A stretch of 64,000 nt of DNA, taken from an uncultured Chloroflexia bacterium (lineage in GTDB: Bacteria; Chloroflexota; Limnocylindria; QHBO01). The translations under genes were made by a program, and so were the position numbers. The stretch lies in the NCBI GenBank assembly GCA_963799675.1, contig CAWCXQ010000019.1, forward strand, positions 261,701-325,700, read 5' to 3'. The notes under the pieces were generated by a model. That model did no database searches and had not been told where the DNA came from. It saw nothing but the letters and a program-made list of their open reading frames with translations. Shown in pieces: positions 33,291 to 60,536 of the stretch (positions within the stretch are counted from its first letter, which is position 1; each line of letters opens with the position of its first letter).

Positions 33291-36200
33291 ATGTACTGGG
33301 TCGGTACCAATACGTGCCCGCACCGCCTTTATCTGTACTCATTGGTGTCCTCGTTGCCCAGTGCCCGGGCTGTAGCCGTGCCTCACGGTCGGTCGTTATC
33401 TGCGCCGCGTCCATCCTTCACCGCCGCGACCCTGCTCGTGTCCGCCGGAGTCGTCATGGCCTCGCTGGCCACGCCGCTACCTGTAAGCGCGGCCACGCTC
33501 ACCTTTGCGCCGATGCAGGACGCGTACGTCTCGGCAGCCGCGAAGACCACGAACTTCGGGACCGCGACGACGCTGCAGGTGGGCAACACATCGGCCGCCC
33601 AGAAGCGCACCTACCTGATGTTCGACGTCCAAGGGCTGACCGGTGCCCCGACGAGCGCCACGCTCCAGCTGTGGGGGGTGAGCACGAGCGGAGCCGCATC
33701 GACACGGACGCTCGCCGACCCCCGGACAGCCTGGGGGGAGACGTCCATCACCAATTCCAATGCGCCCACCCTCGTCGGAGCGAATGTCACCACAGTCAAC
33801 CCAGTCGTGGCTGGCGCGTACAACACTTGGAACGTGTTGAGCTTCGTGGCCGGGAACGGGAGCTTCACGCTCGCGATCACGACCGCGGACCTGACCGGCT
33901 CCACCTTCTCGAGCCGCGAGGACGCGGCCCATCCACCCCTGCTCACGGTCGTCGGGCCCGCCGGGTCGACGGTTCCGGGTGCTCCCACGGGGGCGAGCGC
34001 CGTCGCCGGCAACACGCAGGCCACTGTCAGCTGGACGATTCCGGCGAGCGATGGCGGTAGCGCCATCACGGGCTACACGGTGACGTCCTCGCCCGGCGGC
34101 TTTACGGGTACGGCGTCTGGTCCGACCGCCACCTCCGCCACGGTCTCCGGCCTGACGAATAGCACCAGCTATACGTTCACTGTCCACGCCACCAACGGGG
34201 TTGGTCCGGGCCCCGAATCGGCTGCGTCGAACGCAGTCACACCAAGCGCGCCGACAGTGCCCGGCGCACCCACCAACGCCAGCGCCGTGGCCGGCAATAT
34301 GCAGGCGACCGTCAATTGGACCATCCCCGCCAGCAACGGCGGTAGCGCGATCACTGGCTACACGGTCACCTCCATACCGGAAGGGCACACCGGCACCGCC
34401 TCGGGCCCCACCGCCACCTCCGCAATCGTCGCCGGCATGACCAATGGCACCAGCTACACGTTTACCGTGCATGCAACCAACGGGATTGGTTCGGGTCCCG
34501 AGTCGCCCCCCTCGAACGCGGTGGTGCCCAGCACTATCACGGTTCCCGGTGCACCGACCAATGTTGGCGCGGCGCCGGGCAACGCACAGGCAACCGTCAA
34601 CTGGACGATCCCTGCCAGCGATGGCGGTAGCGCGATCACCAGCTATACCGCAACCTCCACGCCCGGGGCAAAAACGGGCATCGTGTCCGGCGCCGCTGCC
34701 ACTTCCGTGACCGTCGCCGGCCTGACCAATGGCACCAGCTACACGTTCACCGTGCACGCGACGAACGGGATCGGCAGCAGCGTGGAATCGGCTGCCTCGA
34801 GTGCGGTCACCCCCAGCACGACATTGCCCGTGATCCGACGATACCCATATCTGACCGATACGACCACGACGTCGACCTTGGTGAATTTCGCGACGTCCGC
34901 GTCCTCGCCATTGCCGACCGTGCGCTGGGGCCTCGCCTCGGGGGACTGCGTCAGTCCACCCAACACAGCGACCGCGAGCCTCGTGGCAACCCTGACCGGG
35001 ATGCCCGCCGGCACCGACACCCAATTCAAGACCAGCGTCGTCGGATTGACTGCCGCCACGGCGTACTGCTACCGCGTCTACCAATCGGGGGCGGACCTCA
35101 CCGGTGTTGCGACAACCTTCCGCACCGCCCTCGCGGCCGGCAGCAACACGCCGTTCAAGTTCGCGGTCATCGGCGACTGGGGCCAGGGGACGACGGACCA
35201 GGCGAACGTTGCCGCCCAGATCGGAGCTGCCCACCCGGACCTCCTGATCAGCACCGGCGACAACGACTATCCCAATGGAAGCCAGGCGGAGTACGGCGAT
35301 CTGACCGGCGGCACGGTCTTCCCAGCCCAGTATCTGCCCGCGATGGGCAGGGGCCTCCCGATGTTCATGGTCCAGGGAAACCACGGCTTCACGACAAACA
35401 CGCCCTACATCCAGAACTTTCCCCAGGACGTCGTCACGGCAGCGTCGGGCGGCAAGTTCGTGGCCGAGGCGTACTCCAATATCCCCGGATCATCCAATGC
35501 GACGTACGCCAGCGCGTGGTTCGCGTTCACGTGGGGGCGGGCGCGGTTCTACGTGCTCGAGGCCGCATGGGCGGATGCCAATGGCGCATACAGCGGGGAC
35601 TATCAGGCGCACTGGAACACGGGCAACATGGGCTGCACGCCCGCCTGTGGGGCCGAGATGACGTGGCTGCAGAACGACCTCGCGGCCAACGCGTCGGTCC
35701 CGCTGAAGTTCGCCTTCTTCCATTACCCTCTGCACGTCGATAGTCCGAGCGAGGTCTCCGACACCAACCTGAGCGGGCCATCGCCCAAGCTCGAGGGCGT
35801 GCTCGCGGCGGCCAAAGTGGCAATCGTCTTCAACGGTCACGCCCACCAGTACCAGCGGAACTTCGCGCAGATCGCCGGGTCCCCTATGGTCAGCTACGTC
35901 ACGGGCGGGGGCGGAGCGTCCCTCGGCTCTATCGGTACGTGCACCGTGGTAGTAGACGCCTATGGGATCGCTCCCGGCAAGGCCTGCGGCACCGCGTCCG
36001 TGCCGCCGAACAACACCTATGTCTTCCATTACCTGCTCGTATCGGTGAATGGGAACCAGGTAACGGTGACTCCCACCGATGAGATGGGACGCACGTTCGA
36101 CGTGCAGACCTACACCATCGGACCGCTGGCACCCACCGGGCTGAGCGCCACCGCCGGCGACAACTCGGTCGCGCTGAGCTGGACCGCGTCGGCGGGTGCC

Positions 36201-38501
36201 ACCAGCTACAACGTCAAGCGCGCCACCCTCAGTGGTGGCCCATACACCACCATCAGCACTCCGGGCGCGGTGACCGGCACCACCTATACCGATAGCACCG
36301 CCACCAACGGGACGACCTACTACTACGTGGTCAGCGCGGTCGGCGACGGAGGTGAGGGCGCCGACTCGACCCAGGTCTCCGCGACGCCTCAGCCGCCGGC
36401 ACCTGGCGCCCCGACCAACCTCACCCCAACCGCCGGCGACAACTCGGTCGCGCTGAGCTGGACCGCGTCGGCGGGTGCCACCAGCTACAACGTCAAGCGC
36501 GCCACCCTCAGTGGTGGCCCATACACCACCATCAGCACTCCGGGCGCGGTGACCGGCACCACCTATACCGATAGCACCGCCACCAACGGGACGACCTACT
36601 ACTACGTGGTCAGCGCGGTCGGCGACGGAGGTGAGGGCGCCGACTCGACCCAGGTCTCCGCGACGCCTCAGCCGCCGGCACCTGGCGCCCCGACCAACCT
36701 CACCCCAACCGCCGGCGACAACTCGGTCGCGCTGAGCTGGACCGCGTCGGCGGGTGCCACCAGCTACAACGTCAAGCGCGCCACCCTCAGTGGTGGCCCA
36801 TACACCACCATCAGCACTCCGGGCGCGGTGACCGGCACCACCTATACCGATAGCACCGCCACCAACGGGACGACCTACTACTACGTGGTCAGCGCGGTCG
36901 GCGACGGAGGTGAGGGCGCCGACTCGACCCAGGTCTCCGCGACGCCTCAGCCGCCGGCACCTGGCGCCCCGACCAACCTCACCCCAACCGCCGGCGACAA
37001 CTCGGTCGCGCTGAGCTGGACCGCGTCGGCGGGTGCCACCAGCTACAACGTCAAGCGCGCCACCCTCAGTGGTGGCCCATACACCACCATCAGCACTCCG
37101 GGCGCGGTGACCGGCACCACCTATACCGATAGCACCGCCACCAACGGGACGACCTACTACTACGTGGTCAGCGCGGTCGGCGACGGAGGTGAGGGCGCCG
37201 ACTCGACCCAGGTCTCCGCGACGCCTCAGCCGCCGGCACCTGGCGCCCCGACCAACCTCACCCCAACCGCCGGCGACAACTCGGTCGCGCTGAGCTGGAC
37301 CGCGTCGGCGGGTGCCACCAGCTACAACGTCAAGCGCGCCACCCTCAGTGGTGGCCCATACACCACCATCAGCACTCCGGGCGCGGTGACCGGCACCACC
37401 TATACCGATAGCACCGCCACCAACGGGACGACCTACTACTACGTGGTCAGCGCGGTCGGCGACGGAGGTGAGGGCGCCGACTCGACCCAGGTCTCCGCGA
37501 CGCCTCAGCCGCCGGCACCTGGCGCCCCGACCAACCTCACCCCAACCGCCGGCGACAACTCGGTCGCGCTGAGCTGGACCGCGTCGGCGGGTGCCACCAG
37601 CTACAACGTCAAGCGCGCCACCCTCAGTGGTGGCCCATACACCACCATCAGCACTCCGGGCGCGGTGACCGGCACCACCTATACCGATAGCACCGCCACC
37701 AACGGGACGACCTACTACTACGTGGTCAGCGCGGTCGGCGACGGAGGTGAGGGCGCCGACTCGACCCAGGTCTCCGCGACGCCGCTGTCCGCCGCCGCCC
37801 CGGTCTCCTATCCGGCGGTCATCCGCAACTCGGTCTGGTACCTGCGCGACAGCAACACCAGCGCGCCGGGCACGATCACCAGCTTCGCCTACGGCAACCC
37901 GACCGACACCCCGATCTTCGGCGACTGGAATAACGACGGCGTGGCGACGCCGGGTGTGGTGCGGGTGACCGGCGGCTCGCTGACCTGGTACCTGCGCAAC
38001 ACCAATAGCGCCGGCGCACCCGACACCATCTTCGCCTGGGGCGCGGCCACCGACAAGCCGCTGGTCGGCGACTGGGACGGCAACGGCACTGACACGCCGG
38101 GCCTGCTGCGCGCCAGCAACCACTGGATCCTGTCCAACTCGGGCGACGGCACGAGCGGGATCGTCGACTTCTTCTGGGGCAGCGGCGCCGCCAACGAGAA
38201 GCCGATCGTGGGCGACTGGGACGGGAACGGCAGCGACACCCCCGGCTTGGTGCGGGCCGGCAACTGGTGGATCCTCAAAACCAGCAACGACGCGAGCAGC
38301 ACCGTCACCGACTTCTTCTGGGGCACCACCAGCGAGACCGCCTGGGTGGTGGGCGACTGGAACGGCGACGGCAGCGACAACCCCGGCATCCTGCGTGGCA
38401 ACTGGTGGCTGCTGCGCGACTCCAACACCGGCGGCGGGGCCACCGACCGCGACTTCTTCTTCGGCCTCAACAGCGACACCTTCCGCGTGTGGGCCAAGTG
38501 A
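33291..38501 (+). CDS. Giant secreted surface protein A: signal peptide, DNRLRE-like domain, 3 FN3, purple-acid-phosphatase-like metallophosphoesterase, 6 identical FN3, shared C-terminal 5-repeat module
   Basis: Uninterrupted 1736-aa ORF; the likelier start is GTG 33378, giving signal 'LLVSAGVVMASLATPLPVSA|ATL'. 'FAPMQDAYV..KRTYLMFDV..SATLQLW..AWGETSITNSNAP' (DNRLRE-like). 'FAVIGDWGQG', 'STGDNDYP', 'QGNHGF', 'NGHAHQYQRN' (metallophosphoesterase). FN3 'SWTASAGATSYNVKRAT..GTTYYYVVSAV'. Confidence 0.9.
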   Translation: MYWVGTNTCPHRLYLYSLVSSLPSARAVAVPHGRSLSAPRPSFTAATLLVSAGVVMASLATPLPVSAATLTFAPMQDAYVSAAAKTTNFGTATTLQVGNTSAAQKRTYLMFDVQGLTGAPTSATLQLWGVSTSGAASTRTLADPRTAWGETSITNSNAPTLVGANVTTVNPVVAGAYNTWNVLSFVAGNGSFTLAITTADLTGSTFSSREDAAHPPLLTVVGPAGSTVPGAPTGASAVAGNTQATVSWTIPASDGGSAITGYTVTSSPGGFTGTASGPTATSATVSGLTNSTSYTFTVHATNGVGPGPESAASNAVTPSAPTVPGAPTNASAVAGNMQATVNWTIPASNGGSAITGYTVTSIPEGHTGTASGPTATSAIVAGMTNGTSYTFTVHATNGIGSGPESPPSNAVVPSTITVPGAPTNVGAAPGNAQATVNWTIPASDGGSAITSYTATSTPGAKTGIVSGAAATSVTVAGLTNGTSYTFTVHATNGIGSSVESAASSAVTPSTTLPVIRRYPYLTDTTTTSTLVNFATSASSPLPTVRWGLASGDCVSPPNTATASLVATLTGMPAGTDTQFKTSVVGLTAATAYCYRVYQSGADLTGVATTFRTALAAGSNTPFKFAVIGDWGQGTTDQANVAAQIGAAHPDLLISTGDNDYPNGSQAEYGDLTGGTVFPAQYLPAMGRGLPMFMVQGNHGFTTNTPYIQNFPQDVVTAASGGKFVAEAYSNIPGSSNATYASAWFAFTWGRARFYVLEAAWADANGAYSGDYQAHWNTGNMGCTPACGAEMTWLQNDLAANASVPLKFAFFHYPLHVDSPSEVSDTNLSGPSPKLEGVLAAAKVAIVFNGHAHQYQRNFAQIAGSPMVSYVTGGGGASLGSIGTCTVVVDAYGIAPGKACGTASVPPNNTYVFHYLLVSVNGNQVTVTPTDEMGRTFDVQTYTIGPLAPTGLSATAGDNSVALSWTASAGATSYNVKRATLSGGPYTTISTPGAVTGTTYTDSTATNGTTYYYVVSAVGDGGEGADSTQVSATPQPPAPGAPTNLTPTAGDNSVALSWTASAGATSYNVKRATLSGGPYTTISTPGAVTGTTYTDSTATNGTTYYYVVSAVGDGGEGADSTQVSATPQPPAPGAPTNLTPTAGDNSVALSWTASAGATSYNVKRATLSGGPYTTISTPGAVTGTTYTDSTATNGTTYYYVVSAVGDGGEGADSTQVSATPQPPAPGAPTNLTPTAGDNSVALSWTASAGATSYNVKRATLSGGPYTTISTPGAVTGTTYTDSTATNGTTYYYVVSAVGDGGEGADSTQVSATPQPPAPGAPTNLTPTAGDNSVALSWTASAGATSYNVKRATLSGGPYTTISTPGAVTGTTYTDSTATNGTTYYYVVSAVGDGGEGADSTQVSATPQPPAPGAPTNLTPTAGDNSVALSWTASAGATSYNVKRATLSGGPYTTISTPGAVTGTTYTDSTATNGTTYYYVVSAVGDGGEGADSTQVSATPLSAAAPVSYPAVIRNSVWYLRDSNTSAPGTITSFAYGNPTDTPIFGDWNNDGVATPGVVRVTGGSLTWYLRNTNSAGAPDTIFAWGAATDKPLVGDWDGNGTDTPGLLRASNHWILSNSGDGTSGIVDFFWGSGAANEKPIVGDWDGNGSDTPGLVRAGNWWILKTSNDASSTVTDFFWGTTSETAWVVGDWNGDGSDNPGILRGNWWLLRDSNTGGGATDRDFFFGLNSDTFRVWAK
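36124..37784 (+). repeat. Tandem coding repeat, ~6 copies x 279 bp (93 aa FN3 units)
   Basis: The anchor string gccggcgacaactcggtc recurs at 36153, 36432, 36711 (all checked, spacing exactly 279), and by the same period at 36990, 37269, 37548. Copies 1 and 2 were compared base by base and are identical from ~36150. Translated copies 2-6 are identical. Confidence 0.9.
37785..38501 (+). repeat. Shared C-terminal cassette, copy 1 (ends ...RVWAK*)
   Basis: 717 bp from 'ctgtccgccgccgccccggtctcc' to the stop. It reads identically to the copies at 42287, 44896, 52575 and (from tggtacctgcgcgac) 50664. Confidence 0.9.
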
Positions 38502-39014
38502 GCGTGCAGGTCGATCTCGGGACTCGCGGACGAGGCAACCTTGTGATTCCGAGCGAGCCACGCGGCGACGCACGGAGCGGGTGCGGGTTATCGCCCTGCC
38601 CCCCGGGGTGCCGCACCGTTGCTCTAATGCAACGGTATGGTGAAATAGACTCTAGTGCTTTTGGCATGAGTCTGATATGGTTCGGTGCTCAAAAGTGCGC
38701 GGAGCGTGGTGGCGCGCAGTGCCCAGTGGCCACCGCGACGGCCGGGACTGGATGCCTGATGACGGTCTCCTCTCGACCTCGTGTTCAGGAGTCCGGGATG
38801 TGCCCAGCCGGTCGCCATTCATTGCTACGCGTCGCCCTGCTCGCTGACACTCGAAGTGTCTTAGCAATTCGGCCACGGTCTTGGCCGGGCCCTGCGCCTC
38901 TCGCGCGGGGCGAGGGCACGAACTTCCACATGCCGTCCCAACGAGACTGATTGCGAGCCAGGGCTGGTCGAGTCGGTCTCTTTTTTCTGTCCTCAACCAT
39001 CCGAGGCTAAAGAA

Positions 39015-42000: not shown

Positions 42001-43003
42001 CAACGCCGCGACGGCCGTCCTGACCACGGTCGGCACCGCCGATAACACGGCCGGCGTGGTCGACGGCTTCTTCGCCGGCGTGGTCGACGAGGCCCGCATC
42101 TGGAGCGTGGCCCGGACGGCAACCCAGATCAACGCCACCCGGAACGTTCAGGTCACCACCGCCCAGACCAACCTGCTGGGCGTCTGGAACATGAACGAGG
42201 GCAGCGGCACGACCCTCGCCGACAACTCGGGCAACGGCATCACCGGCACGGCCGTCGGGGCGCCGACCTGGGTGGCCGGCTTCCCGCTGTCCGCCGCCGC
42301 CCCGGTCTCCTATCCGGCGGTCATCCGCAACTCGGTCTGGTACCTGCGCGACAGCAACACCAGCGCGCCGGGCACGATCACCAGCTTCGCCTACGGCAAC
42401 CCGACCGACACCCCGATCTTCGGCGACTGGAATAACGACGGCGTGGCGACGCCGGGTGTGGTGCGGGTGACCGGCGGCTCGCTGACCTGGTACCTGCGCA
42501 ACACCAATAGCGCCGGCGCACCCGACACCATCTTCGCCTGGGGCGCGGCCACCGACAAGCCGCTGGTCGGCGACTGGGACGGCAACGGCACTGACACGCC
42601 GGGCCTGCTGCGCGCCAGCAACCACTGGATCCTGTCCAACTCGGGCGACGGCACGAGCGGGATCGTCGACTTCTTCTGGGGCAGCGGCGCCGCCAACGAG
42701 AAGCCGATCGTGGGCGACTGGGACGGGAACGGCAGCGACACCCCCGGCTTGGTGCGGGCCGGCAACTGGTGGATCCTCAAAACCAGCAACGACGCGAGCA
42801 GCACCGTCACCGACTTCTTCTGGGGCACCACCAGCGAGACCGCCTGGGTGGTGGGCGACTGGAACGGCGACGGCAGCGACAACCCCGGCATCCTGCGTGG
42901 CAACTGGTGGCTGCTGCGCGACTCCAACACCGGCGGCGGGGCCACCGACCGCGACTTCTTCTTCGGCCTCAACAGCGACACCTTCCGCGTGTGGGCGCAG
43001 TGA
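39015..43003 (+). CDS. Giant secreted surface protein B: signal peptide, Ig-like domain, calcineurin-like metallophosphoesterase, 2 x (cadherin-like + LamG), shared C-terminal module; single frame break in a T-run at 39240-39243
   Basis: RBS GAGG before ATG 39015. Signal 'FVAIGALLATTAAAVAPGRVLAA'. 'PTLSVHVSDPDNNSMTVTF' continues as 'GRPYLSGVFVQIAQ..QWYVTVSDGTSTITGPTWTFRT' in the -1 frame (ORF 39266-43003, 1245 aa). 'GVGDIAAC', 'GDNVYPDG', 'PGNHDW', 'DGHDHVYER'. Confidence 0.85.
40255..42292 (+). repeat. Tandem coding repeat, 2 x 1020 bp (340 aa: cadherin-like domain + LamG domain)
   Basis: 'ggcgccggtcgcggtcgccgacagc' occurs at 40261 and 41281. The two 340-aa translations are identical. Confidence 0.9.
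42287..43003 (+). repeat. Shared C-terminal cassette, copy 2 (ends ...RVWAQ*)
   Basis: Same 717-bp sequence as 37785-38501 except for the last two sense codons (gcg cag versus gcc aag). Confidence 0.9.
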
Positions 43004-43032
43004 GCAATAACAATCAAGAGGGAGGCACTGTG

Positions 43033-45612: not shown

Positions 45613-48600
45613 GAGACCGGAGAGATGGGCGGCGGGGCGGCGCTGCTCGCCGCCGTCCTCGGGCGGCTCGGGGCGGCGGTCGGACCAGCACCCGCGGAAG
45701 CAGTGGACCGAGCGGCAATATCGCGCTCTCGCTGCCGCCGGTTGTAAGGCGGGTGTCGTTTCTGTGATCGGAAACGGGACTCGTTTCGTCCGTCGATCGC
45801 TTGGAATCCCGCGACGTCGCCGCATATCGGGAAGGAGACTCTGATGTTCCTCCGCAGTCGTTGTCGCCGCGCGGGCGCGGCGATGCGGGGGGCCACGCTT
45901 GCCGTGAGCTTCGCGCTTGTGGCCACGTTGTTCTCCGGGGTCGCGGGCCGCCCGCTATTGGCCGCCGGCCAGCAGGCGCTCCAGCTGAACGGCTCGAGCC
46001 AGTACGCGACCCTCGGCAACACCAGTCAGCTGCGCAGCGCGACGTTCACGGTCGAGTTGTGGTTCAAGCGGACCGGGGCCGGGCTCGGGACGAGCACCGG
46101 TAGCGGCGGCATCGCGAGCGCGATCCCCTTGATCACGAAGGGTCGGGCAGACGGTGAGTCTCCGGCAGCCGATATCAACTACTTCCTGGGCATCGACGCG
46201 ACGAGCGGAAAGCTCGTGGGGGACTTCGAGGAGGGCGCCAGCGGGGCCACACCCAGCGCGAACCACCCCATCACCGGTACGGCCGTCATCGCCGTCGGTG
46301 CGACATGGCACCACGCGGCCGCGACCTATGATGGTTCGACCTGGAGCCTCTATCTCGATGGCGTCCTTGACGGCACCCTGGCCGTTGGCAGGCCAGCCAA
46401 CGCAGCGACAGCAACGCTCACGTCTCTGGGGAGTGCGCTCACCAATGCAGGTGTCGCGGCCGGCTTCTTCGCGGGCGCTGTCGACGAGGTCCGGATCTGG
46501 AGCGTCGCGCGCACCCTGGCCCAGATCAATGCGACCCGGAACACCGAGATCACGACTCCCCAGACCAACCTGCTGGGCGTTTGGAACCTCAACGAGGGCA
46601 GTGGCACGAGCCTTGCCGACAACTCGGGCAACGCCATCACCGGCACCGCGGTCGGTGTGCCGACCCCGCCGACCTGGACGCCGGGCTTCGATGCCAACCA
46701 GCCTCCGGTCGCCGTGGCCGACAGCTACACGACCGCACAGGACACGGCCAAAGTCGTGGCCGCGCCGGGCGTCCTTGCCAACGACACCGATGCGGAATCC
46801 AACCCGCTGACCGCCTTGCTGGTCGCAAACGTCACCCACGGGACCCTCAGTCTCGCCTCCAACGGCGGCTTCACGTACACGCCGACGACGACCTACAACG
46901 GGCCGGACTCGTTTACCTACAAGGCAAACGACGGCACCAGCGATTCGAATACGGTCACTGTCTCACTTGGCGTTGGGAACCTCGGCATGCAGCTGAACGG
47001 AACCAGCCAGTACGCCACCTTGGGGACGACAGCTCAACTGCGCAGTGCGACGTTCACCGTCGAGCTGTGGTTCAAGCGAACCGGTGCCGGGGTCGGCACG
47101 GGTACCGGGACCGGCGGAATCACTAGCGCGATTCCTTTGATCACGAAGGGACGAATGGAGGCCGAGACCGCCGCCGCAGACGTGAACTATTTCCTGGGCA
47201 TCGACGCCAGCAGCGGCAAGCTCGTGGCCGACTTCGAGGAAGGCCAGACCGGGGCCACCCCGAGCGCGAACCATCCGATCACCGCCACCACCGTGGTGAC
47301 GCAGAACGTCTGGCACCATGCCGCGGCGACGTATGACGGGACCACCTGGAACCTCTACCTTGACGGCATCCTCGACGGCACCCTCGCCGTCGGCGCCACC
47401 CATCCAGCCAATGCCGCGACCGCGGTGCTGACCACGGTCGGCAGCTCGCTCGACACCACCGGCACGCCCGCCGGCTTCTTCGCCGGCGCCGCCGACGAGG
47501 TCCGGATCTGGAGCGTCGCCCGCACGCTCAGCCAGATCAACGCCACCCGGACCGTCGAGGTCACCAGCGCCCAGGCCAACCTCCTCGGCGTCTGGAACCT
47601 CAACGAGGGCGGCGGCACCAGCCTGGCCGATAAGTCGGGCAACGGGATCACCGGGACCGCGGTCGGCTCGCCGATCCGGGTCGCAGGCTTCGTCGTGCCG
47701 GACAGCACGCCACCCGCGGCGCCCACTGGTCTGGTCGCGACGCCCACTCTCACCGGGATCGACCTGTCCTGGAACGCGAACTCCGAGTCCGATCTGGCGG
47801 GCTATAACATCTATCGCGGCACAACACCTGGCGTCGGGACGGGTGGCACACCCATAAATGGCGCTCTTCTCACCAGTCCCACGTACACCGACGGCTCCCT
47901 GGCTTCGAGCAGCCTGACCTCGGGCCAGACCTACTACTACGTCGTGACCGCGGTCGACACGTCCGCCAACAAGTCGGCTGCGTCCAACGAAGACTCCGCT
48001 GTCGCACCAGCGGTCAACCGTGGCCTTCAACTCAACGGCACAAGCCAATACGTGACGTTCGGCGCAGCGCCCGGCCTCGACGCTTCGAGCTTCACGATCG
48101 AGCTTTGGTTTTACCAGACTGGCGCCGGCACCCCTACCAGCACTGGCAGTACCGGTCTCAACGCCGTCCCGCTGGTGACAAAGGGGCGCGCTGAGGCCGA
48201 AGCCTCGAACGTCGACATGAACTGGTTCCTGGGGTCGATGCCGCGACGAACAAGCTCGCCGCGGACTTCGAGGAGGGCGCATCGGGGACCACGCCGGGCG
48301 CGAACCACCCGATCATCGGCAGCACGATCGTAACGATGAACGCGTGGCACCACGCTGCTGCAACGTATAACGGCACGGCCTGGAGGCTCTACCTCGATGG
48401 TGCTGCCGACGGGACCCTGACCGTCGGGGAGCCTGCCCGTTCTGACAGCATCCAGCACGCGGCGCTCGGCACGGCCATGACCTCCGCCGGCGCCGCCGCG
48501 GGCTTCTTCGCGGGGGTCGTCGATGAGGCGCGGGTCTGGAGCGTTGCCCGAACGCGCGCGCAGATCCAGGCGACCAAGAACACCGAGCTGACCGGCGCGC

Positions 48601-48732
48601 AGACGACCTGAGGGCCGCTGGGGCCTCAACGAGGGCAGCGGCACGATCGCGGCCGATACGTCCACGAACGGTCGAAACGGAACGGTGGTTGCCGCGCCAA
48701 CGCGCGTCGCGGGCTTCGTGCCGCCTCCTGCC

Positions 48733-50616
48733 GTCAACCAGGCGCCGGTCTGCTCGACGGTGGCCCTCAGCACGCCCGTCAACACCGCCGGTGATGCGGC
48801 ACCCTCGTGCACCGACGCCGAGAACGACACGCTCACCTACGCCATCGTCGCCCAGCCGACCCACGGACGGCCTCGGTCGTGGCCGGCCAGCTGCACTACG
48901 TGCCGGCCAGCGGCTACGAGGGTTCCGACAGCTTCACCTACAAGGCCAACGACGGCAGCCTCGACTCCAACACCGCCACCGTCAACGTGACGGTGACCCA
49001 CGTCAACCAGGCGCCGGTCTGCTCGACGGTGGCCCTCAGCACGCCCGTCAACACCGCCGGTGATGCGGCACCCTCGTGCACCGACGCCGAGAACGACACG
49101 CTCACCTACGCCATCGTCGCCCAGCCGACCCACGGCACGGCCTCGGTCGTGGCCGGCCAGCTGCACTACGTGCCGGCCAGCGGCTACGAGGGTTCCGACA
49201 GCTTCACCTACAAGGCCAACGACGGCAGCCTCGACTCCAACACCGCCACCGTCAACGTGACGGTGACCCACGTCAACCAGGCGCCGGTCTGCTCGACGGT
49301 GGCCCTCAGCACGCCCGTCAACACCGCCGGTGATGCGGCACCCTCGTGCACCGACGCCGAGAACGACACGCTCACCTACGCCATCGTCGCCCAGCCGACC
49401 ACGGCACGGCCTCGGTCGTGGCCGGCCAGCTGCACGACGTGCCGGCCAGCGGCTACGAGGGTTCCGACAGCTTCACCTACAAGGCCAACGACGGCAGCCT
49501 CGACTCCAACACCGCCACCGTCAACGTGACGGTGACCCACGTCAACCAGGCGCCGGTCTGCTCGACGGTGGCCCTCAGCACGCCCGTCAACACCGCCGGT
49601 GATGCGGCACCCCGTGCACCGACGCCGAGAACGACACGCTCACCTACGCCATCGTCGCCCAGCCGACCCACGGCACGGCCTCGGTCGTGGCCGGCCAGCT
49701 GCACTACGTGCCGGCCAGCGGCTACGAGGGTTCCGACAGCTTCACCTACAAGGCCAACGACGGCAGCCTCGACTCCAACACCGCCACCGTCAACGTGACG
49801 GTGACCCACGTCAACCAGGCGCCGGTCTGCTCGACGGTGGCCCTCAGCACGCCCGTCAACACCGCCGGTGATGCGGCACCCTCGTGCACCGACGCCGAGA
49901 ACGACACGCTCACCTACGCCATCGTCGCCCAGCCGACCCACGGCACGGCCTCGGTCGTGGCCGGCCAGCTGCACTACGTGCCGGCCAGCGGCTACGAGGG
50001 TTCCGACAGCTTCACCTACAAGGCCAACGACGGCAGCCTCGACTCCAACACCGCCACCGTCAACGTGACGGTGACCCACGTCAACCAGGCGCCGGTCTGC
50101 TCGACGGGGCCCTCAGCACGCCCGTCAACACCGCCGGTGATGCGGCACCCTCGTGCACCGACGCCGAGAACGACACGCTCACCTACGCCATCGTCGCCCA
50201 GCCGACCCACGGCACGGCCTCGGTCGTGGCCGGCCAGCTGCACTACGTGCCGGCCAGCGGCTACAAGGGTTCCGACAGCTTCACCTACAAGGCCAACGAC
50301 GGCAGCCTCGACTCCAACACCGCCACCGTCAACGTGACGGTGACCCACGTCAACCAGGCGCCGGTCTGCTCGACGGTGGCCCTCAGCACGCCCGTCAACA
50401 CCGCCGGTGATGCGGCACCCTCGTGCACCGACGCCGAGAACGACACGCTCACCTACGCCATCGTCGCCCAGCCGACCCACGGCACGGCCTCGGTCGTGGC
50501 CGGCCAGCTGCACTACGTGCCGGCCAGCGGCTACGAGGGTTCCGACAGCTTCACCTACAAGGCCAACGACGGCAGCCTCGACTCCAACACCGCCACCGTC
50601 AACGTGACGGTGACAG
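48733..50616 (+). repeat. Tandem coding repeat, 7 copies x 270 bp (90 aa cadherin-like unit with CS...SC cysteine pair)
   Basis: 'gtcaaccaggcgccggtctgctcgacgg' occurs at 48733, 49002, 49272, 49541, 49810, 50080, 50349. Spacings are 269/270/269/269/270/269, so four copies each lack one base at a different position. Confidence 0.9.
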
Positions 50617-50663
50617 CGCCCACCGAGCCCGTGAGCCTGCCGGCCGTGATCCGCGACGGGGCC

Positions 50664-51329
50664 TGGTACCTGCGCGACAGCAACACCAGCGCGCCGGGCA
50701 CGATCACCAGCTTCGCCTACGGCAACCCGACCGACACCCCGATCTTCGGCGACTGGAATAACGACGGCGTGGCGACGCCGGGTGTGGTGCGGGTGACCGG
50801 CGGCTCGCTGACCTGGTACCTGCGCAACACCAATAGCGCCGGCGCACCCGACACCATCTTCGCCTGGGGCGCGGCCACCGACAAGCCGCTGGTCGGCGAC
50901 TGGGACGGCAACGGCACTGACACGCCGGGCCTGCTGCGCGCCAGCAACCACTGGATCCTGTCCAACTCGGGCGACGGCACGAGCGGGATCGTCGACTTCT
51001 TCTGGGGCAGCGGCGCCGCCAACGAGAAGCCGATCGTGGGCGACTGGGACGGGAACGGCAGCGACACCCCCGGCTTGGTGCGGGCCGGCAACTGGTGGAT
51101 CCTCAAAACCAGCAACGACGCGAGCAGCACCGTCACCGACTTCTTCTGGGGCACCACCAGCGAGACCGCCTGGGTGGTGGGCGACTGGAACGGCGACGGC
51201 AGCGACAACCCCGGCATCCTGCGTGGCAACTGGTGGCTGCTGCGCGACTCCAACACCGGCGGCGGGGCCACCGACCGCGACTTCTTCTTCGGCCTCAACA
51301 GCGACACCTTCCGCGTGTGGGCGCAGTGA
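50664..51329 (+). repeat. Shared C-terminal cassette, copy 4 (5'-truncated identity; ends ...RVWAQ*)
   Basis: Identical to the other copies from 'tggtacctgcgcgacagc' onward. The preceding ~15 codons are diverged (APTEPVSLPAVIRDGA versus AAAPVSYPAVIRNSV). Confidence 0.85.
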
Positions 51330-51368
51330 GCGCGGTCGGCTGGAACTAACGAGACTCGGGAAGACTAG

Positions 51369-53285
51369 GTGAACTGGACGCCGCGTCTCCGCGCGCTGCG
51401 CCCCGCAAGTCGCGGGGCGACGCTGGTGTTGCTCGCCACCATGAGCGCCTCCATGCTCCTCAGCGTGCGACTTGGGGTGGCGCGGGCCGTAGAGACCGTC
51501 GCTCCACTTGCGCCACTGGCAGCGTCAACGACGACCGAGGATAAGCCGCAGTCGAAGCTGTGGACGTATGCCGGCAGCTGGTGGCTGGTCGCGCCGACGA
51601 CGACGGCGGCCACGCCAGCCGGCACCTGGATCTGGCGACTTGGTACCGACAAGGCGTGGCTTGCGGTGCTGCGGATCTCGACGCGAACGGACACGCACGC
51701 GGACGTGAAAGCCATCGGCAATGTCGCTCACATCCTGTTGTACGGACCCGTGCCCGAGCTCTACTCCGCGCAGTACAACGCGGCGAGCGGCAGCTATGAG
51801 CCATGGAGCACCCGGCCCACGGCCACCGCCATCACGCTGACCGACAGCGAGACGGCCAGTATCGACGTGGACTCCACTGGGCGCATGTGGTTGGCCACCG
51901 AGTCCGGTACGAACCTGAACGTCTTCCACAGCGCGTCCCCGTACACGACCTTCGCTGGCCCGATCACACTCGCCAACAACATCGCCTCGGACGACATTGG
52001 TGTCGTCAGCGCGCTGCCAAACAACACTATCGGTGTCCTCTGGTCGAACCAATCGACCCAGCGCTTTGGCTTCAAGACCCACGTCGATGGCGCGAACGTC
52101 GCAACTTGGACTGCGGACGAGGTGCCCGCCTCCCAATCCGCTCTGAACGTTGGTCTCGGGATGGCCGACGATCACCTGAATCTTGCCGTTGCATCGGACG
52201 GGACGCTGTACGCGGCGGTCAAGACGAGCTACGACACCGCCGGTTACCCGAAGATCGCGCTGCTCGTGCGGCGGCCAACGGGCACCTGGGACAACCTCTA
52301 CGAAGTGGACACAGCCGGGACACGGCCGCTCGTCGTCCTGAACGAACTGACCGGGAGCCTCCGTGTGGTCTACACCTCCTCGGAGGGCTTCAATCCGATC
52401 ATTTACAAGGAATCGGCACTCGCGCCTATCAGCTTCGGCCCCCGGCAGACCTTGCTGGGCGCGGCCTTCAACGATGCGTCGAGTACGAAGCAGAACTGGA
52501 CCGATAGCCTCGCCATCGTGGCGAGCAATGCATCCAACAGTATTGGTGGCGCCATCTTCGAGACACCGCCGCCCGCCGCCGCCCCGGTCTCCTATCCGGC
52601 GGTCATCCGCAACTCGGTCTGGTACCTGCGCGACAGCAACACCAGCGCGCCGGGCACGATCACCAGCTTCGCCTACGGCAACCCGACCGACACCCCGATC
52701 TTCGGCGACTGGAATAACGACGGCGTGGCGACGCCGGGTGTGGTGCGGGTGACCGGCGGCTCGCTGACCTGGTACCTGCGCAACACCAATAGCGCCGGCG
52801 CACCCGACACCATCTTCGCCTGGGGCGCGGCCACCGACAAGCCGCTGGTCGGCGACTGGGACGGCAACGGCACTGACACGCCGGGCCTGCTGCGCGCCAG
52901 CAACCACTGGATCCTGTCCAACTCGGGCGACGGCACGAGCGGGATCGTCGACTTCTTCTGGGGCAGCGGCGCCGCCAACGAGAAGCCGATCGTGGGCGAC
53001 TGGGACGGGAACGGCAGCGACACCCCCGGCTTGGTGCGGGCCGGCAACTGGTGGATCCTCAAAACCAGCAACGACGCGAGCAGCACCGTCACCGACTTCT
53101 TCTGGGGCACCACCAGCGAGACCGCCTGGGTGGTGGGCGACTGGAACGGCGACGGCAGCGACAACCCCGGCATCCTGCGTGGCAACTGGTGGCTGCTGCG
53201 CGACTCCAACACCGGCGGCGGGGCCACCGACCGCGACTTCTTCTTCGGCCTCAACAGCGACACCTTCCGCGTGTGGGCGCAGTGA
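51369..53285 (+). CDS. Secreted surface protein E: signal peptide, ~400-aa domain of unknown type (beta-propeller-like impression), shared C-terminal module
   Basis: Uninterrupted 638-aa ORF starting at GTG 51369. Signal 'ATLVLLATMSASMLLSVRLGVARA'. N-domain segments 'GRMWLATESGTNLNVFHS', 'IGVLWSNQSTQRFGFK', 'DGTLYAAVKTSYD', 'LRVVYTSSEG'. Confidence 0.85.
   Translation: MNWTPRLRALRPASRGATLVLLATMSASMLLSVRLGVARAVETVAPLAPLAASTTTEDKPQSKLWTYAGSWWLVAPTTTAATPAGTWIWRLGTDKAWLAVLRISTRTDTHADVKAIGNVAHILLYGPVPELYSAQYNAASGSYEPWSTRPTATAITLTDSETASIDVDSTGRMWLATESGTNLNVFHSASPYTTFAGPITLANNIASDDIGVVSALPNNTIGVLWSNQSTQRFGFKTHVDGANVATWTADEVPASQSALNVGLGMADDHLNLAVASDGTLYAAVKTSYDTAGYPKIALLVRRPTGTWDNLYEVDTAGTRPLVVLNELTGSLRVVYTSSEGFNPIIYKESALAPISFGPRQTLLGAAFNDASSTKQNWTDSLAIVASNASNSIGGAIFETPPPAAAPVSYPAVIRNSVWYLRDSNTSAPGTITSFAYGNPTDTPIFGDWNNDGVATPGVVRVTGGSLTWYLRNTNSAGAPDTIFAWGAATDKPLVGDWDGNGTDTPGLLRASNHWILSNSGDGTSGIVDFFWGSGAANEKPIVGDWDGNGSDTPGLVRAGNWWILKTSNDASSTVTDFFWGTTSETAWVVGDWNGDGSDNPGILRGNWWLLRDSNTGGGATDRDFFFGLNSDTFRVWAQ
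52575..53285 (+). repeat. Shared C-terminal cassette, copy 5 (ends ...RVWAQ*)
   Basis: Identical to copy 2 from 'gccgccgccccggtctcc' to the stop. Its 3' flank matches the flank of copy 1. Confidence 0.9.
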
Positions 53286-53371
53286 GCGTGCAGGTCGATC
53301 TCGGGACTCGCGGACGAGGCAACCTTGTGATTCAGGGCGAGCCACGCAGCAGTTCCGGGTGGTCTTTCTGG

Positions 53372-60454: not shown

Positions 60455-60536
60455 TCGTTGACGCCGTGCAACACCTCTGATCTACGAGTACTTGCTCCTC
60501 CCTGACTTTATGCCTATGATGCGTTCCTGGTCGGCA

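What the first reader, a model, noticed from the sequence alone, without database searches (positions are those of the whole stretch)
33291..53285. Five tandem, co-oriented giant secreted proteins end in the same nucleotide-identical ~0.7 kb C-terminal cassette
Genes at 33291-38501, 39015-43003, 43033-45612, 45844-51329 and 51369-53285 each have their own RBS and signal peptide, and their N-terminal architectures differ. The architectures are:
- A: DNRLRE-like, FN3 and a purple-acid-phosphatase-like domain.
- B: Ig-like domain, a second distinct metallophosphoesterase, and cadherin-like/LamG units.
- C: LamG and cadherin-like only.
- D: LamG, cadherin-like, FN3 and seven Cys-cadherin units.
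- E: an unassignable ~400-aa domain.
All five finish with the same ~240-aa module. Read side by side, the cassettes (37785-38501, 42287-43003, 44896-45612, 50664-51329, 52575-53285) look base-for-base identical. The only difference is the last two sense codons: gcc aag (AK) in copies 1 and 3, and gcg cag (AQ) in copies 2, 4 and 5. A variable 'head' on a constant C-terminal 'tail' is the reverse of polymorphic-toxin logic. It resembles families that share an anchoring or docking module (SLH, CWB2, dockerin). I cannot match this tail to any named anchor family. Five direct repeats of 0.7 kb also make the locus a ready substrate for gene gain, loss and head swapping by homologous recombination.
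Basis: partly seen in the sequence, partly recalled or inferred. Interest (0 to 1): 0.85.

Follow-up and report, generated by a model that had tools for sequence, protein, structure and literature searches.

The report
Shared lectin-propeller tail on five surface proteins
Five neighbouring secreted proteins of a probable Chloroflexia bacterium end in the same DNA-identical 240-residue module, a predicted five-bladed calcium-loop beta-propeller of the lectin type, which most likely holds them on a surface sugar polymer and is kept identical by gene conversion.

Summary
The core observation holds. Five co-oriented genes end at 38501, 43003, 45612, 51329 and 53285 in cassettes that are base-for-base identical over 668-721 nt. 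The only differences are two bases in the last two sense codons. Two corrections apply. As assembled, gene B carries one frameshift (a T-run near 39240) and gene D at least five. Genes B and C share 2,444 identical nt, not just the tail.

The tail is not an orphan. It is a five-bladed FG-GAP/VCBS-type beta-propeller (AlphaFold pLDDT 95.7) with four Dx[DN]x[DN]G calcium-type loops. It is fold-related to GlcNAc-binding fungal lectins. The family has more than 10,000 clusters at 50% identity. Members occur alone or joined to peptidoglycan hydrolases, proteases and CAP domains.

In this clade the tail genes sit next to a Wzx/Wzy-type polysaccharide cluster, in three independent assemblies.

Gene conversion is well supported. 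The C and D heads are 78% identical while their tails are 100% identical. D keeps a diverged stub at the start of its tail. A and E share a 65-nt flank after the stop codon.

Glycan-mediated surface retention is the best reading but is inferred, not shown. Polishing artefacts cannot be excluded without reads. I rate it a new variant of a known kind, of moderate interest.

The parts
33291..38501 (+). Gene A (1,736 aa, intact). It has a signal peptide, a DNRLRE/CBM96 domain, 3 fn3 domains, a purple-acid-phosphatase-like metallophosphoesterase, a perfect array of 5.9 x 279-nt fn3 repeats, and the tail.
   Evidence: ORF; translation; Pfam and NCBIfam; fn3 array 36150-37783 at 100% matches.
37781..38501 (+). 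Tail copy 1, the five-bladed propeller cassette. It ends in AK.
   Evidence: Identity maps; AlphaFold model with 20 strands = 5 x 4, pLDDT 95.7; four Dx[DN]x[DN]G loops at residues 47, 96, 144 and 191.
39015..43003 (+). Gene B. It has a signal peptide, a metallophosphoesterase-like domain, two identical 1,020-nt LamG + cadherin-like units, and the tail. It is interrupted by one frameshift, a missing T in a T-run at about 39240.
   Evidence: internal repeat exact for at least 974 nt.
42283..43003 (+). Tail copy 2. It ends in AQ.
43033..45612 (+). Gene C (859 aa, intact). It has a signal peptide, two LamG/cadherin-like units and the tail. Positions 43162-45605 are identical to 40553-42996 of gene B.
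   Evidence: The exact protein is on record as P0266 on a 455,522-nt NCBI/ENA contig.
44892..45612 (+). Tail copy 3. It ends in AK.
45844..51329 (+). Gene D. It has a signal peptide, LamG/cadherin-like units (78% nt identical to C), seven 270-nt Cys-containing cadherin/Big_9 units, and the tail. It is broken by at least five single-base deletions between about 48.3 and 50.1 kb.
50662..51329 (+). Tail copy 4, the identical part. It ends in AQ. The propeller domain itself begins at about 50628. Its first ~12 codons (PVSLPAVIRDGA) are homologous to the other copies but diverged, mostly at synonymous sites. This is the left edge of a conversion tract.
51369..53285 (+). Gene E (638 aa, intact). It has a signal peptide, a seven-bladed beta-propeller head with no Pfam match (51489-52574), and the tail.
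   Evidence: Head model pLDDT 92.6. Foldseek matches PLL/PHL lectins, GH145 BT3686 and sialidases. There are 723 homologues, many with a T9SS C-terminal domain in place of the tail. The exact protein is on record as P0265.
52572..53285 (+). Tail copy 5. It ends in AQ.
38502..38566 (+). A 65-nt flank after gene A's stop codon, 62/65 identical to 53286-53350. That second stretch is the start of the Bac_transf gene after gene E, so a remnant was copied along with the tail.
53288..62525 (+). Adjacent Wzx/Wzy-type polysaccharide cluster:
- Bac_transf, 53288-54010
- Membrane protein with about 10 TM segments, Wzx-like, 54216-55730
- Wzy_C-like protein, 56254-58053
- GT2, 58047-59051
- GT2, 59444-60454
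- Big_1 protein, 60492-61118
- Bac_transf, 61707-62525
   Evidence: Pfam; hydropathy; the same genes lie next to tails in L001 and L079.

Best explanation
The cassette encodes a self-contained C-terminal domain. It is a five-bladed beta-propeller built from ~47-residue FG-GAP/VCBS-type repeats. Four blades carry a Dx[DN]x[DN]G calcium-type loop. The N-terminal strand and the last strand (FRVWA) close the ring, which explains why the domain ends 1-2 residues before the stop codon.

I propose that it is a multivalent, probably Ca2+-dependent lectin. It would bind a cell-surface or matrix glycopolymer non-covalently. The candidate ligand is the product of the Wzx/Wzy-type cluster that starts 3 nt after gene E. 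In this way the tail would retain five different secreted heads on the producer's own surface or sheath. The heads are two phosphoesterases, LamG/cadherin adhesin-like proteins, and a seven-bladed propeller.

The five copies are kept identical by repeated gene conversion or unequal recombination among the tandem genes. If all tails must fit one lineage-specific ligand, selection would favour that homogenisation.

Shown here: the repeat identity, the predicted fold, the family size and domain partners, the synteny, and the recombination footprints.

Inferred: glycan binding, the identity of the ligand, self-anchoring, and the selective reason for homogenisation.
For: Fold and family:
- AlphaFold gives pLDDT 95.7 and pTM 0.90, with 20 strands in 5 blades.
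- Foldseek hits with probability 1.0 go to FG-GAP-type GlcNAc lectins AAL2 (4tqm), PVL (2bwr/2bwm) and PAL (5mb4), to ITFG2, and to the Photorhabdus lectins PLL and PHL. The biofilm-matrix protein Bap1 is a weaker hit at probability 0.89.
- 16 of 40 homologues match PF13517.
- There are four Dx[DN]x[DN]G loops. This motif and the sugar-pocket motifs define the VCBS supercluster (PMC8023676).

Use as an accessory module on secreted proteins:
- The homologues number 915, or 40,850 clusters at E<=1e-3 and 10,120 at E<=1e-30.
- Many are just a signal peptide plus the propeller.
- Others are fused to CHAP, M23, Amidase_2/3, SpoIID, transglycosylase and VanW domains, which are wall-active enzymes that classically carry wall-binding modules. 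Further partners are S8, trypsin and M10 proteases and CAP domains.

Positional equivalence:
- Homologues of the E head in Bacteroidota end in a T9SS sorting domain where E has the tail.

No other anchor:
- The proteins end 1-2 residues after the propeller. They have no LPXTG motif and no C-terminal TM segment.

Synteny:
- A tail followed by Wzy-like and GT2 genes occurs in the window, in the Chloroflexia MAG locus L001 and in the JGI contig L079.

Precedent:
- C-terminal beta-propeller lectins of Streptomyces UmbA, with Ca2+-type loops, bind wall teichuronic acid. Twelve five-bladed families are listed (PMC13274773).

Gene conversion:
- The C and D heads are 77.7% nt identical, with 35% of conserved codons differing synonymously. 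Their tails show 0 differences in 668 nt.
- D keeps a synonymously diverged stub at its tail start.
- The AK/AQ variants, the A/E flank and the B/C block form a mosaic.
- In the related MAG, at least 8 tails are 92-97% identical (aa) to each other but only ~64% identical to the window's tails.
- In other lineages, tails in the same locus are only 46-86% identical, apart from overlapping hits in L055.
Against: - No binding experiment exists for any member of this propeller subfamily, and none of its members has a solved structure.
- The window's tail scores below the Pfam cut-off: 16.9 against 26.9 bits.
- TM-scores to the lectins are only 0.44-0.51, because the targets have seven blades.
- No five-bladed FG-GAP structure or tachylectin-2 appeared among the top 50 matches.
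- The tail has no relative in 50,697 phage genomes and no BFVD structure match at E<=0.001 (best hit E=1.3e-03). It is therefore not a known endolysin wall-binding domain.
- The commonest form is the propeller alone, and CAP is the most frequent annotated partner. This fits a free lectin as well as an anchor.
- Relatives also occur in MAGs labelled Acidobacteriota and Myxococcota, which are diderm.
- The polysaccharide linkage is confined to one clade, with only weak GT2 hits elsewhere. The cluster could instead O-glycosylate the proteins, since Wzy_C domains also occur in O-oligosaccharyltransferases (own knowledge).
- The 100% identity rests on a single assembly that shows indel noise.
Confidence: 0.5

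Rival explanations
1. The tail is a targeting lectin for foreign glycans rather than a self-anchor. It would work like a carbohydrate-binding module or an UmbA-type receptor-binding domain. It would deliver secreted enzymes and adhesins to other microbes' walls, to organic particles or to polymeric substrates.
For: - The tail's fold resembles soluble lectins (PVL, AAL2, PLL/PHL).
- UmbA propellers target other species' teichuronic acids (PMC13274773).
- Trypsin + propeller architectures occur in the family.
- Propeller-only secreted proteins are the commonest form.
- Partners include proteases, GH43, CAP and M23, which could be weapons or scavenging enzymes.
- The family is present in diderm phyla.
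Against: - One invariant tail on five unrelated heads argues for one constant ligand. Offensive lectins are diversified, as in UmbA (41 families; PMC13274773). Here the tails are homogenised instead.
- Adjacency to the cell's own polysaccharide cluster is conserved in three assemblies.
- The heads are adhesin-like or phosphatase-like. They benefit from being cell-bound.
Confidence: 0.25
2. The tail is a protein-protein docking module in the manner of cohesin-dockerin. It would plug the five heads into a scaffold or S-layer protein.
For: - Beta-propellers are common protein-interaction platforms; ITFG2 in the KICSTOR complex is the top fold hit.
- The constant-tail, variable-head logic matches cellulosome dockerins (own knowledge).
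Against: - No candidate scaffold with repeated receptor domains lies in the window or in the related loci.
- There is no dockerin or cohesin match.
- The nearest functionally characterised folds are lectins.
- The repeat motifs conserved here are the metal and sugar-pocket motifs of the VCBS supercluster (PMC8023676).
Confidence: 0.07
3. The perfect nucleotide identity is partly an assembly or polishing artefact. The true copies would be similar (about 92-99%) but not identical, and the consensus was homogenised by reads from five paralogues.
For: - The assembly shows indel noise. There are at least five single-base deletions against about two substitutions in D's repeats, and a homopolymer deletion in B.
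- The related long-read-style MAG is heavily frameshifted in the same genes, and its tails differ by 1-8%.
- There are zero indels in 3.5 kb of tails but five in 1.9 kb of D. This would fit pooled coverage of the tails.
- No independent assembly of this species was found.
Against: - The two-base AK/AQ polymorphism is preserved, and its distribution (A, C vs B, D, E) disagrees with the flank pattern (A = E) and the head pattern (B = C). This mosaic is what real recombination produces.
- D has a sharp tract edge inside the domain.
- A 0.7-kb repeat is short relative to typical long reads anchored in unique heads (own knowledge).
- Gene A's 1.6-kb fn3 array is clean.
Confidence: 0.15
4. The identity reflects very recent segmental duplication followed by head replacement, rather than ongoing gene conversion of old paralogues.
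For: - B and C share 2,444 identical nt, including head units.
- The tail plus a 65-nt downstream flank was copied between A and E.
- Perfect internal repeats in A and B show active duplication at this locus.
Against: - C and D are old paralogues, with heads 78% identical, yet they have identical tails.
- D retains a diverged start to its tail, so an older tail was overwritten rather than newly attached.
- The related genome shows the same within-genome homogenisation across at least 8 genes.
Confidence: 0.15

Closest known systems
Fungal FG-GAP-type GlcNAc lectins PVL, PAL and AAL2 (PDB 2bwr, 5mb4, 4tqm) and the VCBS beta-propeller supercluster (PMC8023676)
   Same: The blades are four-stranded and ~45-50 residues long, with a DxDxDG-type metal loop. 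Foldseek gives probability 1.0 and E from 9e-05 to 8e-04. The proteins are secreted, and binding is multivalent, with a pocket for each blade interface.
   Different: The targets have seven blades and the tail has five, so TM-scores are only 0.47-0.51. Sequence identity is 11-15%. The fungal lectins are free-standing proteins, not C-terminal modules. No ligand is known for the tail.
C-terminal beta-propeller lectin domains of Streptomyces UmbA umbrella-toxin proteins (PMC13274773; bioRxiv 10.1101/2025.04.24.650519)
   Same: Both are C-terminal beta-propeller lectin modules with conserved Ca2+-type loops on secreted proteins of soil bacteria of the Terrabacteria group. UmbA propellers were shown experimentally to bind a cell-wall glycopolymer (teichuronic acid). 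Five-bladed families exist there (5BP1-12).
   Different: [quoted passage not shown] UmbA lectins are diversified to hit other species, whereas these tails are homogenised. A direct sequence relationship to any 5BP family was not tested.
Paralogous surface-protein families that share a non-covalent wall-binding module. Examples are the C. difficile Cwp proteins (CWB2), clustered beside the PSII polymer locus, and SLH-domain S-layer proteins with their pyruvylated wall polysaccharide (own knowledge).
   Same: Many different heads sit on one constant module. The genes are clustered in tandem. The cluster adjoins a surface-polysaccharide biosynthesis locus.
   Different: The module here has an unrelated fold and has no CWB2 or SLH match. 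It is always at the C-terminus. Binding has not been shown. Nucleotide-level identity among paralogues is not a described feature of those families.
Vibrio cholerae biofilm-matrix proteins Bap1 and RbmC (PDB 6mlt)
   Same: Both have an FG-GAP/VCBS-type propeller in a secreted protein that ties cells to an exopolysaccharide matrix. Bap1 is a fold hit at rank 16.
   Different: Bap1 has eight blades with an inserted beta-prism domain. It is a single protein, not a tail shared by a gene family. The organism is a diderm.
Concerted evolution of constant C-terminal anchor regions in outer-surface protein families. Examples are Helicobacter pylori babA/babB and other Hop genes, and the pneumococcal choline-binding proteins PspA and PspC (own knowledge).
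   Same: The 5' 'head' is variable and the 3' anchor-coding segment is near-identical among paralogues. Gene conversion maintains the identity, and conversion tract edges are visible.
   Different: The anchors there are beta-barrels or choline-binding repeats. Here the genes are tandem and co-oriented, and identity is exact over 0.7 kb in five copies.

Membership tests
FG-GAP-like / VCBS beta-propeller supercluster (Pfam PF13517 FG-GAP_3) | Tandem repeats of ~45-60 residues, each folding into a four-stranded blade of a closed propeller | tested here: met
   There are five repeats of ~47 aa. AlphaFold gives 20 strands in 5 blades, pLDDT 95.7, pTM 0.90.
FG-GAP-like / VCBS beta-propeller supercluster (Pfam PF13517 FG-GAP_3) | Aspartate-rich DxDxDG-type metal-binding loop between strands A and B | tested here: met
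   The motifs are DWNNDG, DWDGNG, DWDGNG and DWNGDG at residues 47, 96, 144 and 191. They are invariant or nearly invariant in 40 homologues. Metal binding itself was not tested.
FG-GAP-like / VCBS beta-propeller supercluster (Pfam PF13517 FG-GAP_3) | Profile match at Pfam's gathering threshold | tested here: inconclusive
   The window's tail scores 16.9 bits against a cut-off of 26.9, E=0.0097. Of 40 close homologues, 16 match with a best E of 8.7e-08. NCBIfam gives no match.
FG-GAP-like / VCBS beta-propeller supercluster (Pfam PF13517 FG-GAP_3) | Structural similarity to solved members (integrin-type propellers, PVL) | tested here: met
   Foldseek matches ITFG2, AAL2, PVL and PAL at probability 1.0 and E from 5e-05 to 8e-04. 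TMq is 0.44-0.51, limited by the 5-versus-7 blade difference.
Named non-covalent wall or scaffold anchors (SLH, CWB2, LysM, SH3b, CW_binding_1, GW, LGFP, PG_binding, dockerin) | Profile match to the family model | tested here: not met
   Neither Pfam-A nor NCBIfam returns any such hit for the tail or for the five whole proteins.
Covalent or sorting C-terminal signals (LPXTG-sortase, T9SS CTD, PEP-CTERM) | Short C-terminal motif plus TM segment, or a Por_Secre_tail domain | tested here: not met
   The proteins end ...FRVWAK or ...FRVWAQ directly after the last propeller strand. There is no PF18962 match, although homologues of the E head in Bacteroidota do have one.
Tachylectin-2-type five-bladed lectins | Five ~47-residue blades, and sequence or structure similarity to tachylectin-2 | tested here: inconclusive
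   The blade number and length match. There is no Pfam Tachylectin hit, and tachylectin-2 is not among the top 50 Foldseek matches. The tail has the Asp-rich loop, which tachylectin-like propellers lack (PMC8023676).
UmbA (umbrella-toxin lectin subunit) | N-terminal trypsin-like domain, and a locus with UmbB (ALF repeats) and the UmbC toxin | tested here: not met
   None of the five heads has a trypsin domain, and the flanks hold sugar-utilisation and polysaccharide genes. Some distant family members do have trypsin heads.
Lectin (functional class) | Demonstrated specific carbohydrate binding | not testable with these tools
   The only evidence is fold and motif resemblance and genomic context.

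The most novel reading that the evidence does not exclude
This five-bladed calcium-loop propeller may be a major, so far unrecognised cell-surface retention domain of Chloroflexota, Actinomycetota and allied soil lineages. It would be comparable in role to SLH or CWB2. It would bind a lineage-specific wall or sheath glycopolymer made by the adjacent Wzx/Wzy cluster. The need for every surface protein to fit that one polymer would drive the exact concerted evolution of the tails, so tail and polymer would co-evolve as a lock-and-key pair.
Probability: 0.25. Interest if true: 0.7.

Novelty: new variant of a known kind. Interest (0 to 1): 0.45.

Why it matters
- **Envelope biology.** Little is known about how Chloroflexota and many uncultured soil lineages display proteins on their envelopes. 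A shared lectin-propeller tail would give a testable answer, and a sequence signature for predicting their surface proteomes. The family exceeds 10,000 clusters and is mostly annotated as 'hypothetical'.
- **Concerted evolution.** The locus is a clean natural example of domain-limited concerted evolution. Heads 78% identical carry tails 100% identical, a conversion tract edge is preserved, and a neighbouring gene's start was copied along with the tail.
- **Practical uses.** The tail is a candidate module for surface display or glycan probes.
- **Annotation caution.** Repeat-rich surface genes in MAGs are fragmented by indels and are under-called by annotation pipelines. Only a 367-aa piece of gene D is on record.

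Tried and rejected
- NCBIfam on the tail gave nothing.
- PDB sequence searches with the tail and with the 40-sequence profile gave nothing. The E-head profile gave only a chance hit.
- tblastn of the tail against 50,697 phage genomes gave no match. A fold search against BFVD gave nothing at E<=0.001. The idea that the tail is a known endolysin wall-binding domain was therefore dropped.
- The look-up of encoding contigs for P0001 returned 'not on record', so the source contig could not be fetched and tails outside the window could not be counted. The search for homologous proteins listed only proteins of 417 aa or fewer, so it could not count them either.
- Scans of genome contigs and metagenome contigs found no relative closer than 63-66% aa identity. 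No independent assembly of this species exists to test per-copy identity.
- A GC3 frame-plot meant to measure assembly-wide frameshift rates was uninformative. These Thr/Gly/Asp-rich genes confuse strand calls. Pfam on the fragmented-looking 25.8-27.9 kb region found nothing.
- The promoter and terminator scan found nothing above shuffled expectation. The only notable site is a terminator-like hairpin at 38961-38979, before gene B.
- A secretion or sorting tag (T9SS CTD, LPXTG) was considered and rejected. The tail is a 240-aa folded propeller with no such motif.
- The long antisense ORFs inside each tail (for example 37889-38497) were considered and dismissed as high-GC artefacts.
- A general link between tails and polysaccharide genes in distant lineages was not found. 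Only weak GT2 hits appeared in a few of 85 large loci.

Full report
**1. The observation**

tblastn with the last 238 codons of gene A finds exactly five copies in the window, all on the + strand. They end at 38501, 43003, 45612, 51329 and 53285.

Aligned from the stop codons, the DNA is exactly identical leftwards for three lengths:
- 721 nt for A vs B/C
- 714 nt for E vs A/B/C
- 668 nt for D vs all others

The only internal differences are two adjacent bases in the last two sense codons. A and C read GCC AAG (AK). B, D and E read GCG CAG (AQ). The repeat finder reports the same five-copy family.

All five genes start with a signal-peptide-like sequence: a basic stretch, a hydrophobic stretch, then Ala-X-Ala. 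C, D and E have clear purine-rich ribosome-binding sequences upstream; the RBS of A and B is less obvious.

The head architectures were mostly reproduced:
- A: DNRLRE/CBM96, fn3, Pur_ac_phosph_N and Metallophos.
- B: Metallophos (just under threshold) plus LamG_3 and cadherin/Big_9 units.
- C: LamG_3 and cadherin/Big_9.
- D: the same, plus seven 90-residue Cys-containing cadherin/Big_9 units.
- E: no match.

**2. Corrections to the observation**

Gene B is not a single ORF. The reading frame changes at about 39240, where ACA TTT TCG GCC reads TVTF|GRPY only if one more T is present in the T-run.

Gene D changes frame at least five times between about 48.3 and 50.1 kb. Single bases are missing from different copies of its 270-nt repeat, giving periods of 269 or 270 nt. 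In D's array the deletions (at least five) outnumber substitutions (about two). That ratio suggests sequencing error rather than natural decay. However, gene A's 5.9 x 279-nt fn3 array is perfect, and the ROK and solute-binding genes elsewhere in the window are intact. The question is therefore open.

B and C share much more than the tail. Positions 40553-42996 equal 43162-45605, 2,444 nt. B also contains two copies of a 1,020-nt LamG-cadherin unit that are exact for at least 974 nt.

**3. What the tail is**

The sequence is five ~47-residue repeats of the form W-x-L-R-x-S-N...F-x-(Y/W)-G...P-(I/V)-x-G-D-W-[DN]-x-[DN]-G-x-D-T-P-G-(V/L)-x-R. Four Dx[DN]x[DN]G loops lie at residues 47, 96, 144 and 191.

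Profile and sequence searches gave little for the window copy:
- Pfam gives only a sub-threshold FG-GAP_3 match (16.9 against 26.9 bits).
- NCBIfam gives nothing.
- PDB sequence searches give nothing.
- However, 16 of 40 close homologues match FG-GAP_3.

With a 40-sequence alignment, AlphaFold2 gives a very confident model: pLDDT 95.7, pTM 0.90. It has 20 strands, that is five four-stranded blades. The first strand (PAVIRNS) and the last strand (FRVWAK) lie next to each other and close the ring.

Foldseek against the PDB returns these matches:
- ITFG2, an FG-GAP propeller
- the GlcNAc-binding fungal lectins AAL2, PVL and PAL
- the Photorhabdus lectins PLL and PHL
- the Vibrio biofilm protein Bap1

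The first three groups match at probability about 1.0. Bap1 is a weaker hit, at probability 0.89 and E 5.8e-03. TM-scores are 0.44-0.51 for the lectins and ITFG2, and 0.30 for Bap1. The values are limited because every target has seven or eight blades.

These features place the tail in the VCBS/FG-GAP supercluster of Pereira and Lupas (PMC8023676). That supercluster is defined by the Asp-rich metal loop and by Gly/Trp motifs that form sugar pockets in PVL and tachylectin-2. It contains uncharacterised secreted actinobacterial 'actinolectins'.

**4. How widespread it is, and with what partners**

The word-indexed search found 915 homologues. An exhaustive profile search found 40,850 clusters at 50% identity with E<=1e-3, and 10,120 with E<=1e-30.

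In GTDB representative genomes the relatives lie mostly in Actinomycetota (Acidimicrobiia, Microthrixaceae and cultured genera such as Georgenia, Cellulomonas, Occultella, Propioniciclava and Paractinoplanes). They also occur in Chloroflexota (Anaerolineae, Chloroflexia) and Saccharibacteria, and in some Acidobacteriota and Myxococcota MAGs.

The commonest form is a signal peptide plus the propeller alone, about 280 aa, ending ...PVVW. Fusion partners are:
- CAP (19 of the top 120)
- CHAP, M23, Amidase_2, SpoIID, transglycosylase, M10 and a beta-lactamase domain
- In a second sample of 70 proteins: M23 x5, S8 x3, SpoIID x2, trypsin x2, Amidase_3, VanW, M12, C1, GH43, GSDH and Metallophos

Many genomes carry several tail genes side by side, up to five in 12 kb.

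The tail has no relative in cultured-phage genomes and no BFVD structure match at E<=0.001.

**5. Context**

Upstream of gene A lie sugar-utilisation genes (a solute-binding protein, GH130 and a GFO/MocA oxidoreductase) and msrA.

Directly after gene E begins a polysaccharide cluster:
- an initiating phosphoglycosyl transferase (Bac_transf; GTG at 53288)
- a ~10-TM protein that looks like a Wzx flippase (54216-55730)
- a Wzy_C-like polytopic protein (56254-58053)
- two GT2 glycosyltransferases
- a Big_1 protein
- a second Bac_transf

The closest genome is a MAG labelled 'uncultured Chloroflexia bacterium MFD00032.bin.2.2'. In about 70 kb of one contig it carries at least eight tails. Homologues of the Wzy-like, GT2a, GT2b, Wzx-like and Bac_transf genes (43-67% aa identity) lie next to them. 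A JGI metagenome contig of the same clade (L079) again shows tail, then Wzy-like, then GT2a. This linkage is not seen in distant lineages.

The window's own genome is in NCBI/ENA. P0001, P0265 and P0266 are exact products of genes D (3' piece), E and C, on a 455,522-nt contig. It is not a GTDB representative, and it has no closer relative in the metagenome collection.

**6. The E head**

The 'unassignable' head of gene E has 723 homologues at 50-70% identity across phyla. In Bacteroidota (Pontibacter, Adhaeribacter, Chitinophagaceae) these end in a T9SS sorting domain. Elsewhere they carry CBM96, LamG or PKD modules.

Its model (pLDDT 92.6) is a seven-bladed propeller. It resembles the PLL/PHL lectins, the GH145 enzyme BT3686 and sialidases, with TMq 0.6-0.7.

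So the same head uses a cell-surface sorting domain in one phylum and the propeller tail here. This is circumstantial support for a localisation role of the tail.

**7. Why the copies are identical**

C and D are old paralogues. Over 623 aligned head codons they are 77.7% identical, and 35% of codons with the same amino acid differ synonymously. Their tails have no difference in 668 nt. At the head rate, about 220 conserved codons without a single synonymous change is essentially impossible.

D keeps a fossil. The first ~12 codons of its propeller (PVSLPAVIRDGA against PVSYPAVIRNSV) are homologous but differ at most synonymous sites, and exact identity begins abruptly at 50662. An older, diverged tail was therefore overwritten. 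This is the signature of gene conversion.

The variants form a mosaic:
- AK/AQ groups A with C.
- The 62/65-nt flank after the stop codon groups A with E. It is the copied start of the Bac_transf gene.
- The 2.4-kb block groups B with C.

Several separate events are needed to produce this pattern.

In the related MAG the tails are 92-97% identical (aa) to each other, with patchy shared differences. They are only ~64% identical to the window's tails. That is concerted evolution seen in an independent assembly.

In other lineages, tails in the same locus are 46-86% identical, apart from overlapping hits in L055. Extreme homogenisation is therefore peculiar to this clade.

**8. Artefact caveat**

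The related MAG is heavily frameshifted in these genes, and the window has indels in B and D. The absence of any indel in 3.5 kb of tails, against five in 1.9 kb of D, could mean that tail consensus benefited from pooled reads.

Against an artefact stand the preserved two-base polymorphism, the discordant mosaic and the tract edge in D. I estimate about 0.15 that the perfect identity is overstated. Near-identity (>95%) is safe.

**9. Mechanism proposed**

Shown:
- A constant, confidently predicted five-bladed propeller with Ca2+-type loops sits at the extreme C-terminus of five secreted proteins.
- The proteins have no other anchor motif.
- The family is a frequent accessory of wall-active hydrolases.
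- The nearest characterised folds are lectins.
- Synteny with a Wzx/Wzy cluster holds within the clade.
- Recombination footprints are present.

Inferred:
- The tail binds a glycan.
- The glycan is the cell's own surface or sheath polymer.
- This retains the heads on the cell.
- A single shared ligand explains selection for identical tails.

Experimental precedent for this kind of interaction comes from Streptomyces UmbA. Its C-terminal beta-propellers bind wall teichuronic acid at canonical blade pockets (PMC13274773; bioRxiv 10.1101/2025.04.24.650519).

The main rival is a free or targeting lectin. It is favoured by the abundance of propeller-only proteins, by CAP and protease partners, and by occurrence in diderm phyla.

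The neighbouring cluster could alternatively glycosylate the proteins, as S-layer glycosylation loci do (own knowledge).

**10. Comparison and novelty**

The logic (many heads, one wall-binding tail, genes clustered beside a polysaccharide locus) is that of the CWB2/Cwp and SLH systems. The concerted evolution of a constant 3' anchor segment is that of the H. pylori bab/hop genes or the pneumococcal choline-binding proteins (own knowledge).

The module itself has a different fold and fails every named-anchor model. It belongs to a described superfamily (VCBS/FG-GAP) but to a functionally unstudied branch, and no five-bladed member of that type appeared among solved structures.

I therefore rate it a new variant of a known kind. 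Interest is moderate (0.45). The locus is well defined and testable, but the function is unproven and the fold family is already catalogued.

Noticed in passing
window 51489-52574 (head of gene E): This ~360-aa domain has no Pfam or NCBIfam model, yet it is 50-70% identical across phyla (723 homologues). It is predicted as a seven-bladed propeller resembling PLL/PHL lectins, GH145 and sialidases. In Bacteroidota it is fused to a T9SS sorting domain. It looks like an unnamed, widely spread family of secreted glycan-active or lectin proteins.
   Followed up: partly
window 36150-37783 (gene A): This is a perfect tandem array of 5.9 x 279 nt (100% matches, no indels) encoding identical fn3 domains, each followed by a PQPPAPGAPTNLTP linker. 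The array was amplified very recently or is kept uniform by homogenisation.
   Followed up: partly
window 48732-50614 (gene D): This is a 7 x 270-nt array of 90-aa Cys-containing cadherin/Big_9 units. The copies are 99% identical but carry single-base deletions at different positions in different copies. The deletions break the gene into at least six frames. Indels outnumber substitutions, which suggests sequencing error, but a decaying pseudogene is not excluded.
   Followed up: partly
window 38502-38566 and 53286-53350: The first 65 nt after gene A's stop codon are 95% identical to the start of the Bac_transf gene that follows gene E. After gene A there is no glycosyltransferase gene, only this remnant and a 0.5-kb spacer.
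   Followed up: yes
window 53288-62525: A Wzx/Wzy-type surface-polysaccharide cluster starts 3 nt after gene E. It has two Bac_transf genes, a ~10-TM Wzx-like protein with no Pfam hit, a Wzy_C-like protein, two GT2 genes and a Big_1 protein. It is conserved next to tail genes in two related assemblies. The Wzy_C protein could equally be an O-oligosaccharyltransferase.
   Followed up: partly
L001, L002, L003, L008 (contig CAVOJY010000002.1, Chloroflexia MAG): The related MAG has at least 8 tail genes in about 70 kb, four of them within 12.7 kb in L002. Nearly all are fragmented: open frames of only 191-662 aa, some starting inside the propeller. One tail has a one-base deletion in a G-run. This points to heavy indel noise in that assembly.
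   Followed up: partly
window 29946-32003 and 25800-27600: A 685-aa ORF with one N-terminal hydrophobic segment lies just upstream of msrA and has no Pfam match. The stretch at 25.8-27.6 kb, after a solute-binding gene, has several overlapping ORFs in different frames and no Pfam hit where ABC permeases would be expected. These may be further frameshifts.
   Followed up: no
L050, L055, L068, L077, L078: Clusters of four or five propeller-tail genes within about 12 kb also occur in Acidobacteriota, Actinophytocola, Acidimicrobiia and Villigracilis (Anaerolineae) genomes. Paralogue identity there is only 46-86%. Tandem expansion of tail-bearing genes is therefore common, but exact homogenisation is not.
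   Followed up: partly
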